Source: Raja brachyura (Eukaryota). Taken from it: 64,000 nucleotides of DNA. Within the stretch, counting starts at the first letter, position 1. The number at the start of each line of letters is the position of its first letter. Positions 1 to 39,000 of the stretch are shown in pieces. The stretch spans positions 18,972,001-19,036,000 of the forward strand of contig OY740787.1 of NCBI GenBank assembly GCA_963514005.1. Direction: 5' to 3'. Made by a program: the position numbers.

Positions 1-3000
1 ATTAATCGTTGAGTGTATAACACATGACATGAATTGGATATAATATGATTGATGAACAAGGAACATTATTTGCATTGCACGGTCCAAATTGGTTATAATA
101 CGATTTGTTTAGAAATTTACAAGCAGAAAAATCTCCTTGGGGGAGGGGGGGGGGGGAGGATGAAAGTAGTTTAGGAAAACAAAAAACAGGTTCCATGTAA
201 CCTCCAAGCAGTTATCAGAGACTGGATGACACAAAGCTGGGTGGCAGAGTGAGCTGCGAGGAGGATGGTATGAGCTGCAGGGTGACTTGGATAGGTTGGG
301 TGAATGGGCAGATGCATGGCAGATGCGATATAATGTGGATAAATGTGAGGTTATCCACTTTGGTGGCAAGAACAGGAAGGCAGATTAATAACTGAATGGT
401 TCAGAAAGAACTGCAGATGCTGGAAAATGCTGGAGAGACTCAGCGGGTGAGGCAGCATCTATGCAGCAAAGGAATAGGTGACTTTTCAGATCGAGACCCT
501 TCTTCAGACTAATGTGCGGGTGGGGGGACGGGAAGAAAAAAGGAAGAGGCGGAGACAATAGGCTGTGGGAGAGCTGGAAAGGGGAGGTGAAGGAGAGAGA
601 AAGCAAGGACTAACTGAAATTGGAGAAGTCAATGTTCATACTGTTGGGGTGTCTACTACCCAAGTGAAATATGATTAATATTTAAGAAGGAACTGCAGAT
701 GCTGGAAAATCGAAGGTAGACAAAAATGCTGGAGAAACTCAGCGTGTGAGGCAGCATCTATGGAGCGAAGGAAATAGACAACTTTTCGGGTCGAGACCCT
801 TCTTCAGACTGAATAGGACAAATTCAGTCTGAAGAAGGGTCTCGAACCGAAACGTTGCCTATTTCCTCCACTCCATAGATGCTGCCTCACCCGCTGAGAT
901 TCTCCAGCATTTTTGTCTACCAAGTGAAATATGAGGTGCTGCTCCTCCAATTTGCAGTGGGACTCACTCTGACCATGGAGGAGGCCCAGGAAAGAAAGGT
1001 TGGATTTGGAATGGGAGGGGGAGTTGAAGTGCTGAGCCACCGGGAGATCAGGTTGGTTAATGCGAACTGTGCGGAGGAGTTGGACGAACCGATCGCCAAG
1101 CCTGCGCTTGTTCTCGCCGAAGTAGAGTAGTTGACACCTAGAGCAGCGAATGCAATAGATAAAGTTGGAGGAGGTGCAGGTGAACCTCTGCCTCACCTGG
1201 AAAGACTGCTTGGGTCCTTGGATGGAGTCGAGGGGGGAGGTAAAGCGACAAGTGTAGCATTTCCTGCGGTTGCAAGGGAAAGTACCAGGGGAGGGGGTGG
1301 TTTGGGTGGGACGGGACGAATTGACCAAGGAGTTACGGAGGGCGTGGTCTCTGCGGAAAGCCGAAAGGGGAGGAGATGGGAAGATGTGGCCGGTGGTGGA
1401 ATCCCGTTGGAGGTGGCGAAAATGTTGGAAGATTATCTGTCGTATGTGACGGCTGATAGGGTGGAAGGTGAGGACAAGGGGGATTCTGTCCTTGTTACGA
1501 GTGGAGGTGATGGGGAGTGAGAGTGAAGCTACGGGATATAGAGGAGACCCTGGAGAGCCTCATCTATAGTCGAAGAGGGAAACCCTCGTTCCCTAAAGAA
1601 TGAGGACATCTCCAATGCCCTGGTTTGGAACACCTCATCCTGGGTGCAGATGCGGCATAGACAGAGAAACTGGGAGCAGGGGATGGAGTCCTTACAGGAA
1701 GCAGAGTGGGAAGAAGTGTAGTCCAGATAGCCATGGGAGTCAGTGGGTTTGTAGTAGATGTCGGTCAGTAGTCTGTTACCTGCGATAGAGATGGTGAGGT
1801 CTAGAAGTGGTAGGGAGATGTCGGAAATGGTCCAGGTGACTTTGAGTGCCGGATGGAAGTTAGTGGTGAAATGGATGAAGTCAGTGAGTTCTGCATGGGT
1901 GCAGGAGGTGGCACAATGCAGTCATCACTGTAGTGAAGGTAGAGTTCGGGGACAGGGCCACGGTACGCCTCGAACAAGGATTGTTTGACGTAGCCTACAA
2001 TGAGGCAGGCATAGCTGAGGTTCATGCGCGTGCCCATAGCTACGCCTTGGATTTGGAGGAAATGGGAGGTGTCAAAGGAAAAGTTGTTGGGGGTAAGGAC
2101 CAGCTCCGCAAGGTGGATGAGAGTATTAGTAGACCTGGATTGGTTGGTTCTGCGGTCGAGGAAAAATGGAGAGCTTTAAGATTCTCCTGGTGAGGGATGG
2201 AGGAGTAGAGTGACTAAACTTCCATTTTCCAGGCTCCCACTCCCTCATGGTGAAGATGAGGGAGTGGGAGCCTGGAAAATGGAAGTCATGGAGGAGACGA
2301 AGAGTGTGTGAGGTATCTGAATGGTGGCAGATTAGGAAAAGGGGAGGTGCAACCAGACCTGGGTGTGCTTGTACGTCAGTCACTGAAAGTAAGCATGAAG
2401 GTACCGCAGGCTGTGAAGAAAGCAAATGGCATGTTGGCCTTCATTGCGACAGGATTTCAGTTTAGGAGGAAGGAGATCCAACTGCAGTTGTACAGTGCCC
2501 TGGTAAGACCTACAACTGTATTGAGTGGAGTTTTGGTCTCTTAATTTGAGGAAGGATATTCTTGCTATTGAGGGAGTGCAGTGTTGGTTCACCAGGTTAA
2601 TTCCCAGGATGGCGGGACTGACATATAATGAAAGAATGGGTCGAGAAGAATGAGAGGAGATCTTCTAGAAACATATAAAATTCTTAAGCTATTAGACAGG
2701 CAAGAAGCAGCAAAAATGTTCCTCGTGTTGGGGGAATCCAGAACCAGGGGTCACAGATAAAGAATAAGGGGTAGGCCATTTAGGACTGAGATGAGGAAAA
2801 ACCTTTTCACCCAGAGTTGCGAATCTGTGGAATTCTCTGCCACAGAAGACACTGGATGTTTTCAAGTTAGATTTAGCTCTTTGGGCTAACAAAATCAATG
2901 GATTTGGGGAAAGAACGGGAATGGGGTACAGATTTTGGATATTTAGTGATGATCATATTGAATGGTGGTGCTGGCTCGAAGGGTCGAATGGCCTACTCCT

Positions 3001-36000: not shown

Positions 36001-39000
36001 CCAGTGTGCATGGGTGATGGATGGTCAGTGTGGACTCAGCGGGCCAAAGAGCCAGTTTCCATGCTGGACCTTTAAACAAAAATATGAACTTGATGCGAGT
36101 GATGAATAAGGAAACACTATTTGCATTAAGCAGAGCGAATTAGATATAATGCAATTTCAATTGGGAATGAGATAACCACTTAAAAGTTACTTAGGAAATT
36201 AACAAGCAGAAAAAGCTGGCTTATATTTTAACAGTATAGGGAGAAAATATTGTTCCCCACAGTGATCAGACACCATTGTCTGTTAAGAACACAACTGCTA
36301 CTTTAACTGTGTCTGGCCACTGAAATTGATAAGCAATAGTTTGCATTGACATTTGTGCAGGGATACCTATTAAACAATGTCACATGCAGCCTTTGGTATA
36401 TTTAGCTTGCAGTGATAAAAACAAACCTGCAGATACAAAATCACTTGCAGCCAATACCAAACTATATTTTTGAAAATCCTGTATTAAAAGTAATTTCGTA
36501 ATTGCGATTCTGAAACTCTATCCCCAATCCTCTTTCCTCATTGTTCATAACACAATTTTCTATAAGACAAGGTTTATCAGGAACATTTAGGCTGGATGTA
36601 GTTGGGTGATATTACGCAAGCAAACAGATGGGACATGCAGCCAGAAATTCCCTTTTGGAGTCAAATACAATAGGAAGGCTATGAACAGTCTGAGTCAAGC
36701 TTGGATGCAAGTTCTGGGCTGGAATCAGTAGCTTAGGAATGAAATTTGTAGTGAGTCCAAAAACAATGGCTAAGGTCTTTCCAATATTTAAATATAGCTC
36801 CCTCCATTCCCCATCATCATCAGCCTCATCTCTAATTACATCATATGAGATCCATATTTTTTCGTATGTTGGCAGTTCTGTTGCCAAGCGAAGCTTAATT
36901 CTTTTCTAGTTGCTGCAATTATATACTTTGAATGCACACTGCAGAAATTACACCAAGATTGCGCAGACTTATTTAATGTATCCCATTTTATTCCAAGAGA
37001 CCATTAGGCCGGCCCGAGCCAAAAATCGGACCATTTTATACGATTCTGTTGTACACTATTTTACCCAGTTGCAAATAAGATTGGCGTTCAAGGATAGCTC
37101 TATTTACATGGGTTAATTAAAAAATACAAATTTAAAAAACAACAAAAAAAAACGTAGTTTTGCCTTCAGTAAGAAAACAGAACATCTGATTTTATTGTTC
37201 AGCAATGAAGTCAATAGTACACACTGCAATCTTCTTATTGAGGTTTGTAAGTGCAAGTTCATCTTTCTTTTTTTCTTCTGAGACCATTGCTCCCCCATTC
37301 CTTCATCTTGTTCCATTAAACTGCCAAAGGATCCATCTTCTTCCAAACTTAAAATCGAGTATCCTGCTAGCATCGTTTACTCCAACAGAAAATGCTGTGA
37401 ATATTCAGCAGGTCTGGCAGCATCAAAATAGAGCTAACTTTTCAGGTCACTTTCATCAGAGTGCCTGGGAATATGGTGAAGTGTCTTTGACTTGAAATTT
37501 TAACTCTGTTTCTCTTTGAACAGATGTTGCCTGATCAGTTGAACATTTCCAACATTTGTTTTTATGCAGATCTTGTTTCAGTTTAAAAAAAACTCAAACA
37601 CATTCCAAGGATCTAAAATCCAAAATTGCACATCTCATATAATCTACTCACTTTAAAAACAAAGTTGACATTGGATATCTAATTAATATACTTAATCGTG
37701 CCTGTATATATTTACTGTTCAATCAGGCTTCAATTATGAAAAGGAATTCAAACTCCCATAAAGCATTTTTAATGCATGTCTCGATTTACACTATTGCAAT
37801 ACAACCAGTGTCAACCCAAGGGTTTGATGCCAAATAATAGTTATAGCTGAAGACATTTCTCGTTTTGAGACCATGAATTCTGGTGTGAAATTATATAAAT
37901 ATTGCCTTGGGACTTGTCAGTAAAACAATAATTTGCATTTATATTATGCCTTTAAGATAATCATCCCATGGTGCTTTCAGATGTATAATTAAAAATAAAG
38001 ATATTAAAATGAAAAATTGCATATATTGGGACATGACCAAAGAGCATATCAAAGGACAATGGGAAATGGACAGCAGAAAGATTTTCTAGAAAAAATTCCA
38101 GAATCGCAGACTATGTGTAAGTTTTTCAGATAGGGGCAACATTTTCAGATTGGAGATGTGAAGGAATTAATCCACAGGTATGGACAATGTCTAATCAGGA
38201 CAGTGCATGAAATATGACTTAAATCGTTTATATCGTAGAAACATAAGACGAGCTCACGTCGCCTTAAAAATTCTCATTCATTCAATGTGAACATGACAGA
38301 TTCTCCAATATAAAAATCCACTTCCACGTACAATATGTGCATTGCTAGATTCTATTGGTATCCAACATTCTTATCGATCTCAGCCTCTCATATACTCATT
38401 CACTTAGCACCCACAGCTTGATGGGGTATAGAATTATAGAGAATCACAACCCTCTAGAGGAACCAACCTCTAGCTCTATATTTCTATTCCTTTTAGCCAA
38501 TAAATAAGCTTCACAAAATCCCAATAACTTCAATGATATCAATGAGAAGCTTCACAAAATCCCGTATACTCTAATGATACAAATGAAGCTGTCCTACTCA
38601 ATATAGGGATCTCCTGGTGCATTTATTCTGTAATGCCTCCAAAGCAAATACATTCTCTCTTGGGCCAATACTCCACTCTAGTATAATCCCACCAATTCCC
38701 TGTTAAAAAGAAAAGCTGTTCCTTGTTTGGGTATTCCAAGATTATTGAGTAGACAAGTCCAGAGGTAACAGGGTACAGACACAAGGAACTGCAGGTGCTG
38801 CTTAATACAAAGGAGGGCACAAAGTGCTGGAGTAACTCAGCAGGTCAGGCAACATCTCAGGATAGGTGACGTTTTGGGTCTCCCTGACGTGCTGAGATTC
38901 ACCAGCACTGTGTCCAGAAATAACAGAGGTATGGATGAGATGTCATAAAGAGAATCGGCCAAATGCATGTTATTACCAAGATAGAGATATTGTAAGCCTA

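What the first reader, a model, noticed from the sequence alone, without database searches (positions are those of the whole stretch)
660..38932. The hammerhead unit inserts on its own, mostly as inverted dimers with 13-17 bp TSDs
Seen: at least five insertions consist only of the non-coding unit and have flanking direct repeats. They are 675-919 (15 bp), 8420-8594 (13 bp, 1 mismatch), 9889-10142 (17 bp, perfect), 19031-19138 (15 bp, 1 mismatch) and 38777-38911 (imperfect). Four are inverted pairs whose junction falls at or next to the ribozyme core. Older diverged pairs with the same layout occur at about 7620-7820, 17560-17765 and 37385-37560. Inference: either a non-autonomous retrozyme/SINE-like family moved by the Penelope RT and GIY-YIG enzyme, or stereotyped ultra-short Penelope integration products with 5' inversion. 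The recurrence across subfamilies of different age suggests a long-lived mechanism.
Basis: partly seen in the sequence, partly recalled or inferred. Interest (0 to 1): 0.75.

Follow-up and report, generated by a model that had tools for sequence, protein, structure and literature searches.

The report
Penelope retrotransposon end-module mini-insertions
These are real, very short insertions made only of the 100-140 bp hammerhead-bearing end piece of a Penelope-like retrotransposon, often as head-to-head pairs, and they match an insertion layout already described for this class, so the finding is sound but ordinary.

Summary
All five reported insertions exist with flanking direct repeats of 13-17 bp. 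These repeats are far better than chance: 0, 2, 0, 1 and 10 of 3000 random placements did as well. Two insertions sit inside older Penelope copies, and sister copies there show the target sequence only once. Four of the five are inverted pairs and one is a monomer. Two of the three "older pairs" are supported; 17560-17765 is not inverted.

The unit is the 3'-terminal module of RT plus GIY-YIG Penelope-like elements in the same window. It carries the minimal hammerhead typical of these elements. Thirteen of 19 non-coding arms begin within about 13 nt of the hammerhead's 5' edge. Five of six pairs carry the 30-40 nt "tail" on one arm only.

Published work on Penelope-like elements already describes inverted end repeats, a one-sided tail, junction palindromes and variable target duplications. 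Purified enzyme also extends both cut DNA strands in vitro. I read these as ultra-short Penelope integration products, not retrozymes. There are no direct tandem units, the borders are not at the cleavage site, and the pairs would fold into hairpins that bury the ribozyme. Novelty is low: a new member of a known kind.

The parts
660..674 (.). left copy of the 15-bp target-site duplication of insertion 1 (right copy 920-934)
   Evidence: D1, 15/15; null 0/3000; single copy in sister Penelope copies
675..815 (-). insertion 1, long arm: full unit with the ~40-nt tail
   Evidence: nhmmer E 1.3e-43; alignment reaches profile column ~140
822..919 (+). insertion 1, short arm (no tail); intact minimal hammerhead core at 829-856
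   Evidence: (I1, 93% complementary)
8407..8419 (.). left copy of the 13-bp target-site duplication of insertion 2 (right copy 8595-8607, 1 mismatch)
   Evidence: null 2/3000
8420..8489 (-). insertion 2, short arm with an internal deletion in the hammerhead
8490..8594 (+). insertion 2, long arm with tail; its 5' border is ambiguous because the centre is rearranged
9872..9888 (.). left copy of the 17-bp target-site duplication of insertion 3 (right copy 10143-10159)
   Evidence: D2, 17/17; null 0/3000; single copy in sister copies
9889..10012 (-). insertion 3, long arm with tail
10013..10142 (+). insertion 3, short arm, beginning with a 36-nt partial copy (10013-10048) that restarts at the hammerhead core
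   Evidence: D1, (period 36, 2.1 copies, 97%)
19016..19030 (.). left copy of the 15-bp target-site duplication of insertion 4 (right copy 19139-19153, 1 mismatch)
   Evidence: null 1/3000
19031..19138 (+). insertion 4: single short-ended unit with a 12-nt tandem restart at the core; intact hammerhead core 19047-19074
38775..38880 (-). insertion 5, long arm, 5' end inside the hammerhead
   Evidence: nhmmer E 7.5e-19
38881..38914 (+). insertion 5, short arm fragment; imperfect duplication 38757-38771 / 38912-38926 (13/15)
   Evidence: I1 and D1; null 10/3000
7619..7823 (.). old inverted pair: 7619-7668(-) short end, 7698-7823(+) with tail; no detectable duplication
37385..37560 (.). old inverted pair: 37385-37465(-) and 37477-37560(+), both starting at the hammerhead border; no tail seen on either; no duplication
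35344..35482 (+). single full unit with tail, weak 11/13 flanking repeat
   Evidence: nhmmer E 3.5e-41; null 44/3000
15079..15212 (+). single unit with tail; 5' extent uncertain
   Evidence: no ungapped flanking repeat
6818..6894 (-). single unit fragment starting at the hammerhead border
   Evidence: (E 3.7e-9)
17581..17761 (+). two weak unit pieces on the same strand; not an inverted pair
   Evidence: E 0.021 and 0.99; one search finds no inverted repeat
402..2321 (-). Penelope-like coding copy A1 (5'-truncated), host of insertion 1; unit with tail at its 3' end (402-513)
9031..10467 (-). Penelope-like coding copy A2 (5'-truncated), host of insertion 3; unit with tail at 9023-9155
15686..16052 (-). 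Penelope-like copy A5 (end of the endonuclease region plus unit, short end)
58031..58805 (-). Penelope-like coding copy A3 (5'-truncated, short end), possible 11/13 duplication 58023-58035 / 58812-58824
62070..63828 (+). Penelope-like coding copy A4: reverse transcriptase and GIY-YIG reading frames (stop at 63453-63455), 240-nt 3' UTR, unit 63696-63828 with tail, hammerhead core 63700-63727
39351..39781 (.). head-to-head pair with longer arms: 39351-39483(-) endonuclease end, 39539-39781(+) 3' UTR plus unit with tail

Best explanation
[quoted passage not shown] The module runs from a minimal hammerhead motif to the element's 3' end. It is about 100 nt long, or about 135 nt with the optional tail.

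The unit-only insertions are integration products of that Penelope machinery.
1. The endonuclease makes a staggered double-strand cut. This later appears as a 13-17 bp duplication. (Duplication shown; cut inferred.)
2. Each exposed 3' end primes reverse transcription on the terminal module of a Penelope RNA. One starts at the outer start site and keeps the tail. The other starts at the inner start site and has no tail. (Inferred.)
3. Both cDNAs end at or just before the 5' edge of the hammerhead. They are joined head to head, sometimes through a few bases of the short palindrome that lies there. (End positions shown; joining inferred.)
4. If only one end is used, a monomer results. (Inferred.)

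Shown here: real insertions with duplications; the unit is the Penelope 3' end; the tail is usually one-sided; 5' ends cluster at the hammerhead border. Inferred: priming from both strands, two RNA templates, and the joining step.

Still open: whether the template is the full Penelope RNA, with a stop or switch at the module border, or a short unit-length RNA made from Penelope copies.

The hammerhead is a passenger landmark of the module in these copies. Nothing here shows that its cleavage defines the borders.
For: - Parent elements: tblastn with elasmobranch homologues maps reverse-transcriptase/endonuclease pieces at six places. The window frame 62895-63452 has 58-63% identical named homologues. 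One of them carries RVT_1 and GIY-YIG.
- Unit position: in 5 of 5 coding copies that reach their 3' end (A1-A5), the unit lies at that end.
- True insertions: see the duplications, null test and empty sites.
- Minimal hammerhead features described for PLEs are present: the CUGANGA and GAAA cores, one extra base after position 9, a G-C pair closing helix II, and the palindromic CG. A strict pattern gives 3 hits against 0 expected. The features are those in PMC4209133.
- 5' ends: 13 of 19 non-coding arms start at profile column 13 or earlier; the core starts at column 11. The binomial P is 6e-10 against uniform truncation within the unit. With 2.7 kb of upstream Penelope sequence offered as query, 10 solo hits still begin 1-15 nt before the core.
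- Tail on one arm only in 5 of 6 pairs.
- Insertion 3: the two arms differ at two positions where each variant also occurs in another copy (insertion 4, A4). Both tandem pieces of the right arm share the same variant. This suggests two templates.
- Each solo group has a coding copy of the same subfamily at 86-97% identity.
- Literature: an inverted 5'-truncated copy plus a 30-40 bp tail at one end (PMC8557442). Inverted pLTR, a 31-bp one-sided tail, 8-10 bp duplications, palindromes at the inverted junction, and pLTR sufficient in cis (PMC3846280). Purified Anolis enzyme cleaves and extends both strands, has two start sites bracketing the tail, and needs only about 150 nt next to the hammerhead (PMC11167929).
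Against: - Only one 64-kb window was available, so all counts are small and partly chosen by eye.
- The one-sided tail (5 of 6) is not significant alone: P is about 0.11 if each end were long or short at random.
- The sixth pair shows no tail on either arm.
- Insertion 5 has both arms truncated inside the unit. The centre of insertion 2 is rearranged. So 2 of 6 junctions do not sit cleanly at the border.
- Rfam finds no hammerhead at gathering or E<=10. Helix I is only about 2 bp. Most copies carry core mutations.
- TSD composition is hardly more AT-rich than the window (GC 0.35 against 0.40).
- Priming from both strands is taken from an in vitro study of a lizard element, not shown for this family.
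- No full-length element with a 5' repeat is in the window, so the module's role at the 5' end is unknown.
Confidence: 0.62

Rival explanations
1. An independently evolving non-autonomous (SINE-like) family. Unit-length RNAs come from their own master copies and borrow the Penelope reverse transcriptase and endonuclease in trans.
For: - The unit has discrete 5' and 3' borders.
- It is conserved (79-88% to A4) while the adjacent 3' UTR is often unalignable.
- The three youngest solo arms share three differences from the only coding copy of their subfamily.
- pLTR alone suffices in cis for trans-mobilisation in a rotifer (PMC3846280).
- A 2026 preprint argues that animal retrozymes derive from Penelope end repeats.
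Against: - Every solo group has a same-subfamily coding copy in the window.
- One of the three shared differences is a CpG decay in the coding copy, and the others may be private to it.
- New solo copies would lack any upstream promoter.
- No internal promoter was looked for or seen.
Confidence: 0.17
2. Deletion after insertion. Full-length insertions of the canonical form (inverted end repeat, direct end repeat, ORF, direct end repeat) lost the ORF by recombination between the two direct repeats. This left an inverted pair or a solo repeat between the original duplications.
For: - The canonical layout is documented (PMC3846280; PMC8557442). It would give exactly this product.
- Insertions 1 and 3 and the pair at 37385-37560 have two full-length arms.
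Against: - None of the coding copies in the window has an upstream unit, and all of them are 5'-truncated.
- About 13 solo events outnumber them. This is the reverse of what rare full-length parents would give.
- The repeats are only 100-140 bp.
- Insertion 5 has both arms truncated.
- The tandem restarts in insertions 3 and 4 look like template jumps.
Confidence: 0.12
3. Retrozymes in the strict sense. Tandem hammerhead units would be cut by the ribozyme into unit-length RNAs, circularised and retro-copied.
For: A hammerhead motif is present. Retrozymes and PLEs co-occur in vertebrates, including a cartilaginous fish.
Against: - No unit-length direct tandem exists in the window.
- Unit borders are fixed and not at the GUC site.
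- One arm of each pair is antisense, and a transcript folds into a hairpin of -162.7 kcal/mol, z -21.6, that buries the core.
- The motif is the minimal type, not the canonical type I of retrozymes.
Confidence: 0.04
4. A foldback or MITE-type DNA transposon with long terminal inverted repeats.
For: Inverted arms flanked by direct repeats.
Against: - The arms are the 3' end of a retroelement.
- The duplication length varies from 13 to 17 bp.
- The outer ends differ (tail against no tail).
- Monomers with duplications exist.
Confidence: 0.01

Closest known systems
Canonical Penelope-like element insertion with inverted pLTR and one-sided tail (e.g. Pen2a_Av of Adineta vaga; PMC3846280, passages seen; general statement in PMC8557442)
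   Same: Head-to-head inverted end repeats. A 30-40 bp tail on one outer end only. A palindrome or microhomology at the inverted junction. Flanking target duplications. Solo end repeats. Heavy 5' truncation.
   Different: Here there is no ORF between the repeats, so the whole insertion is 108-254 bp. The duplications are longer (13-17 bp against 8-10 bp in the rotifer). The host looks like a cartilaginous fish, judging from protein relatives.
Minimal hammerhead motifs of Penelope-like elements (Cervera and De la Pena 2014, PMC4209133; text parts 1-2 read)
   Same: The core, the extra base between positions 9 and 10.1, the G10.1-C11.1 pair, the palindromic 15.2-16.2, and a very short helix I. 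That paper already reports pairs of motifs 100-700 bp apart on opposite strands. It also reports that most motifs are solitary and 'probably related to truncated PLEs'.
   Different: That paper did not analyse duplications, breakpoints or tails of the solitary motifs in the parts I read. Its supplementary alignments could not be seen.
In vitro integration by the Anolis Poseidon element PAc (PMC11167929; main text read)
   Same: Both target strands are cut and extended. There are two reverse-transcription start sites with the tail between them. A template of about 150 nt next to the hammerhead is sufficient. Ribozyme cleavage is not needed.
   Different: That work is in vitro and did not describe joined inverted products. 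Here there are only genomic end products, with no biochemistry.
Non-LTR retrozymes of animals (PMC7229834, passages; bioRxiv 10.64898/2026.07.22.740005, abstract, Results part 1 and Discussion)
   Same: Non-coding, hammerhead-bearing, related to Penelope end repeats, and probably moved by Penelope enzymes.
   Different: Retrozymes are direct tandem arrays with canonical type I ribozymes that are cut into circular RNAs. These copies are single or inverted, have minimal motifs, and have borders away from the cut site.
LINE-1 5' inversion by twin priming (recalled, no paper read here)
   Same: The second target strand is used as a primer, which gives an inverted segment inside one pair of duplications.
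   Different: In twin priming the two segments are neighbouring parts of one RNA. Here both arms are the same terminal segment, each with its own 3' end.

Membership tests
Penelope-like element (insertion products of) | Parent copies encode a reverse transcriptase followed by a C-terminal GIY-YIG endonuclease | tested here: met
   The GIY-YIG motif is visible in frame. Pfam GIY-YIG on the window frame gives only E 0.041, below cut-off. Homologue P0001 (63% identical) scores GIY-YIG 23.2 bits (cut-off 22.6) and RVT_1 22.7 bits (below its 29.6 cut-off). tblastn maps six coding pieces.
Penelope-like element (insertion products of) | The unit is the 3' terminus of the coding copies | tested here: met
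   5 of 5 coding copies that reach a 3' end finish with the unit.
Penelope-like element (insertion products of) | An adjacent inverted 5'-truncated copy | tested here: met
   Six inverted pairs, plus one pair with longer arms at 39351-39781.
Penelope-like element (insertion products of) | An optional 30-40 bp tail, typically at one end only | tested here: met
   5 of 6 pairs have the tail on one arm. Among coding copies, A1, A2 and A4 have the tail; A3 and A5 do not.
Penelope-like element (insertion products of) | Target-site duplications of variable length | tested here: met
   13, 15, 15, 15 and 17 bp. Two are confirmed by paralogous empty sites.
Penelope-like element (insertion products of) | AT-rich target preference | tested here: inconclusive
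   TSD GC is 0.35 against 0.40 for the window. Four of five start with an ATAT- or ATAA-like stretch when oriented by the tailed arm. n = 5.
Hammerhead ribozyme, minimal type of Penelope-like elements | Catalytic core CUGANGA ... GAAA, the G10.1-C11.1 pair, the extra base after position 9, the palindromic 15.2-16.2, and H17 | tested here: met
   Three copies fit a strict pattern against 0 expected in 100 shuffles. The other copies carry one or more core changes.
Hammerhead ribozyme, minimal type of Penelope-like elements | Match to a curated covariance model | tested here: not met
   No Rfam hit at gathering score in the window. No hammerhead family at E<=10 in 63600-63900. This is expected for a motif without helix III.
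Hammerhead ribozyme, minimal type of Penelope-like elements | Self-cleavage | not testable with these tools
   Needs transcription and cleavage assays of monomer and direct-dimer constructs.
Non-LTR retrozyme | Direct tandem repeats of the unit, each with a ribozyme in the same orientation | tested here: not met
   Tandem Repeats Finder finds only a 36-nt and a 12-nt partial restart.
Non-LTR retrozyme | Unit ends defined by the ribozyme cut site | tested here: not met
   5' ends cluster 0-13 nt before the core, and the cut site lies 28 nt after the core's start. The one candidate at the cut site (8490) is ambiguous.
Non-LTR retrozyme | Unit-length linear and circular RNAs | not testable with these tools
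   No RNA data were available.
SINE-like independent lineage | Diagnostic substitutions shared by solo copies and absent from coding copies | tested here: inconclusive
   Solo arms sit next to coding copies of the same subfamily at 86-97% identity. Three differences from A4 are shared by three young solo arms. There is only one coding copy to compare with.
SINE-like independent lineage | Own (internal) promoter | not tested
   No eukaryotic promoter tool was available.
Foldback / MITE DNA transposon | Fixed-length duplication and identical outer termini | tested here: not met
   The duplications are 13-17 bp. One outer end carries the tail and the other does not.

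The most novel reading that the evidence does not exclude
The unit could be a natural minimal Penelope template: a discrete 100-140 nt RNA whose 5' end is a transcription start at the hammerhead's 5' edge.

Two leads point that way. An initiator-like TCAGTCT sits at the edge. A TATA-like CTATATCTC lies about 29 nt upstream in 3 of 7 long copies. Both are read, and the promoter motifs are recalled, not tested.

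If so, every 5'-truncated Penelope copy that keeps about 30 nt of 3' UTR would be a source gene for promoter-less daughter units. The inverted pairs with one tailed and one untailed end would then be the in vivo record of both target strands priming at two different start sites. The window also hints at two diverged ~27-nt modules in the unit. Each ends at one start site, and each can pair with the same upstream 8-mer.
Probability: 0.2. Interest if true: 0.55.

Novelty: new member of a known kind. Interest (0 to 1): 0.3.

Why it matters
The finding matters modestly. It gives a clean set of minimal Penelope insertions, two of them with paralogous empty sites. Every part of each product can be read base by base: both outer ends, the junction and the duplication.

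Such mini-insertions are the simplest natural substrates for asking how Penelope enzymes finish integration, a step the in vitro work left open.

They also matter for annotation. They look like foldback elements or hairpin RNA genes, and they would be counted as "solitary hammerheads". Inverted pairs of 100 bp arms are potential sources of double-stranded RNA and of local instability.

Tried and rejected
- Rfam found no hammerhead at gathering score or at E<=10 on one unit.
- Conserved RNA structure of the unit is not shown.
  - RNAalifold predicts no consensus pairs.
  - The candidate long-range helix (internal AGAUGCUG with tail CAGCAUCU) is 83% paired. Only 2 cells have a change on both sides, and 229 of 500 shuffles reach that.
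  - Single-sequence folds contain the helix, but their energies are no better than shuffles, z -0.7 to +1.4.
- Ribozyme cut site as a breakpoint: I first read 8490 and 32472 as arms starting exactly after GUC. On re-reading, 32472 keeps a remnant of the core upstream with an internal deletion. The centre of insertion 2 can be read two ways because of the palindrome. I dropped the claim.
- Snap-back self-priming of one cDNA does not explain the pairs. It would give identical outer ends and no direct duplication.
- Flanking repeats were sought and not found, or found only at chance level, for the old pairs, 15079-15212, 6818-6894, 32396-32472 and the long-armed pair at 39351-39785.
- PDB sequence search with the endonuclease frame gave no match.
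- Searches failed on a frame slip of mine and were repeated with the right coordinates.
- The protein Atlas was closed for the unrelated 716-aa frame.
- I could not collect other genomic copies, orthologous loci or RNA reads.
- Supplementary figures and tables of the papers were not available. These include the hammerhead alignments of PMC4209133 and the PAc genome mapping of PMC11167929, and they may already show such pairs.

Full report
**What the window is.** The window has no N runs. It is rich in retroelements. Six places encode pieces of a reverse transcriptase/GIY-YIG protein (tblastn). The best-kept copy, here called A4, runs to 63828 on the + strand. Its last reading frame (62895-63452) shows the GIY-YIG motif. 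Pfam gives only a weak match on that frame (E 0.041, below cut-off). Its nearest database relatives are unnamed proteins of whale shark, devil ray, stingray and zebra shark at 58-63% identity. One of these carries the GIY-YIG domain above its cut-off and RVT_1 below it. These are Penelope-like elements (PLEs). I do not take the contig for human.

**The unit.** A unit of 100-140 nt lies 240 nt after the A4 stop codon. The same unit ends all five coding copies that reach a 3' end: A1 402-2321(-), A2 9031-10467(-), A3 58031-58805(-), A4, and A5 15686-16052(-).
- In sense orientation it starts with (T)CAGT-CUGAAGA-A-GGGUCUCGACCC-GAAACGUC.
- It ends either near GUGUCUACC (the short end) or 30-40 nt further on (the tail).
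- Its first 38 nt have the features listed for the minimal hammerheads of PLEs: both core boxes, one extra base after position 9, a G-C pair closing helix II, and a palindromic CG in place of helix III (PMC4209133, text parts 1-2).
- A strict pattern finds three intact cores (829, 19047, 63700) against none in 100 shuffles.
- Rfam does not recognise the motif. Helix I is only about two pairs. Most copies have core mutations.

**Check of the observation.** A blastn search and a profile search find about 26 arms of the unit.
- The five reported insertions are confirmed with their flanking repeats: 15/15, 12/13, 17/17, 14/15 and 13/15.
- In 3000 random placements scored the same way, a repeat at least as good occurred 0, 2, 0, 1 and 10 times.
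- Insertions 675-919 and 9889-10142 sit inside the older copies A1 and A2. In alignments with three sister copies each, the duplicated sequence is present once and the insertion is absent. This is as close to an empty site as the window allows.
- Four insertions are inverted pairs. The one at 19031-19138 is a monomer with a 12-nt restart.
- Of the three older pairs, 7619-7823 and 37385-37560 have significant hits on opposite strands. At 17560-17765 the two weak pieces are on the same strand. No flanking repeat survives around the old pairs.
- Counting everything, I find six inverted pairs and about seven single units. "Mostly dimers" is therefore true of the well-preserved five, not of all.

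**Anatomy that bears on mechanism.**
1. *5' ends.* In the profile alignment, 13 of 19 non-coding arms begin at column 13 or earlier, and the core begins at column 11. If truncation were uniform within the unit this would have P = 6e-10. I also used A4 with 2.7 kb of upstream sequence as the query. Ten solo hits still start 1-15 nt before the core. The caveat is that 3' UTRs differ between subfamilies, so this test is weaker for copies not of the A4 type. The six other solo arms start inside the unit.
2. *Outer ends.* In five of six pairs, one arm has the tail and the other ends at the short site. The sixth pair shows no tail. On its own this is not significant (about 0.11).
3. *Junctions.*
   - In insertion 3 the arms meet in the small palindrome CAG/CTG at the core's edge with 3 nt of overlap.
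   - In insertion 1 both arms run 7-13 nt past the core and meet without overlap.
   - Insertions 3 and 4 contain restarts (36 and 12 nt) that begin again at the core, as template jumps from a template end would.
   - The centres of insertions 2 and 5 are shortened or rearranged.
4. *Two templates in insertion 3.* The left arm has the GTT variant found in insertion 4. Both pieces of the right arm have the GTC variant found in A4, plus a second shared change. Two different templates are the simpler reading.
5. *Subfamilies.* The young solo arms (insertions 3 and 4) are 95-97% identical to A4. Insertion 1 and 35344-35482 are 86-89% identical to A1. Insertion 2, 15079-15212 and insertion 5 are nearest to A2, A5 or A6. 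No solo-only lineage is evident, but there is only one coding copy per subfamily.
6. *Hairpin.* A transcript through a pair folds into a ~100-bp hairpin (-162.7 kcal/mol, z -21.6), so the ribozyme cannot form there.

**Comparison with what is known.** Each of these traits is in print for PLEs.
- Craig et al. state that insertions are heavily 5'-truncated, often have an inverted 5'-truncated copy next to them, and carry a 30-40 bp tail often at one end only (PMC8557442, passages).
- Arkhipova et al. describe, in a rotifer, an inverted pLTR completing the insert, a 31-bp tail on one of the inverted pLTRs, duplications of 8-10 bp, palindromes at the pLTR 5' end and at inverted junctions, TATA and initiator-like motifs in the pLTR, solo pLTRs, and pLTRs sufficient in cis for mobilisation (PMC3846280, passages).
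- Cervera and De la Pena already saw pairs of minimal hammerheads 100-700 bp apart on opposite strands. They judged the many solitary motifs to be truncated PLEs.
- The in vitro study of the Anolis element shows four things. Both target strands are cut and extended. Reverse transcription starts at two internal sites with the tail between them. About 150 nt next to the hammerhead is enough as template. Ribozyme cleavage is not required (PMC11167929, main text).
- Retrozymes of animals are direct tandem arrays with canonical ribozymes processed into circles (PMC7229834, passages; preprint 10.64898/2026.07.22.740005). The window has no such arrays.

**Best explanation.** These are minimal integration products of the Penelope machinery.
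1. A staggered cut is made.
2. Each 3' end primes on the terminal module of a Penelope RNA, using the two known kinds of start site.
3. Both cDNAs end at the module's 5' border.
4. The cDNAs are joined head to head.

Monomers arise when only one end is used. The insertion, the identity of the unit, the border clustering and the tail asymmetry are shown. The priming, the templates and the joining are inferred.

It stays open whether the template is a full Penelope RNA that is left at the border or a short unit-length RNA.

Two rivals remain alive:
- An independent non-autonomous lineage.
- Loss of the ORF by recombination between direct end repeats of a full-length insertion. This is disfavoured because none of the coding copies in the window has an upstream unit, and solo events outnumber them.

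**Leads that did not hold or stay weak.**
- A long-range helix between an internal 8-mer and the tail appears in all four single folds. It has no covariation support.
- Breakpoints at the ribozyme cut site did not survive a second look.
- A TATA-like motif about 29 nt before an initiator-like TCAGTCT occurs in 3 of 7 long copies. It is only a lead.

**Limits.**
- This is one window.
- No other eukaryotic DNA, orthologous loci or RNA data could be reached.
- Supplementary files of the papers could not be seen.
- Repeat libraries such as Repbase or Dfam were not available, so I cannot say whether this family is already catalogued.

**Verdict.** This is a new member of a known kind, and interest is 0.3.

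Noticed in passing
window 9031-10467 versus 62900-63828 (also 402-2321, 58031-58805): The Penelope copies are mosaics. A2 is only 71% identical to A4 in the ORF end but 85% in the 3' UTR. A1 and A3 are 82-85% identical in the ORF, yet their 3' UTRs hardly align (28-34% coverage). The unit is 79-88% identical in all. This suggests module exchange between lineages, with a boundary near the hammerhead.
   Followed up: partly
window 699-709 / 726-736 and the same positions in other tailed copies: The tail looks like a diverged duplicate of the preceding ~27 nt (shared CCAGCAT). Each module ends at one of the two 3' ends. The 5' GAAGAAGG of the core can pair with CCUUCUU at the end of the tail in two of four folds.
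   Followed up: partly
window 2314-3031, 3647-4669, 17893-18865, 23280-24298, 27574-27818, 30775-31594, 54403-55393, 55794-56522, 61005-61250: A second, more abundant retroelement family with RVT_1 hits has copies up to 99.5% identical to each other. I did not classify it.
   Followed up: no
window 51148-53301 (-): An open frame of 716-717 aa has no Pfam match even at E<=1. The Atlas look-up was not possible.
   Followed up: partly
window 19808-21163 (-): An open frame of 451 aa has a PWWP domain near its C-terminal end (E 1.1e-5, just above cut-off). It may be an exon or part of another element.
   Followed up: no
window 26514-27206 (+): A frame next to an RVT_1-bearing frame matches the ALKBH8 N-terminal domain model (E 5e-15). 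I did not examine it.
   Followed up: no
window 379-400 and 2314-2334: Around copy A1, two short direct repeats (GGCAGATTA and TA[A/T]CTGAATGGT) occur on both sides but in swapped order. They may be a duplication in a repeated target. Unexplained.
   Followed up: no
window 39351-39781: A head-to-head Penelope pair has longer arms: the endonuclease end on the - strand and 3' UTR plus unit on the + strand. The expected 3' end of the - arm is missing or displaced, and insertion 5 lies 470 nt further left.
   Followed up: partly
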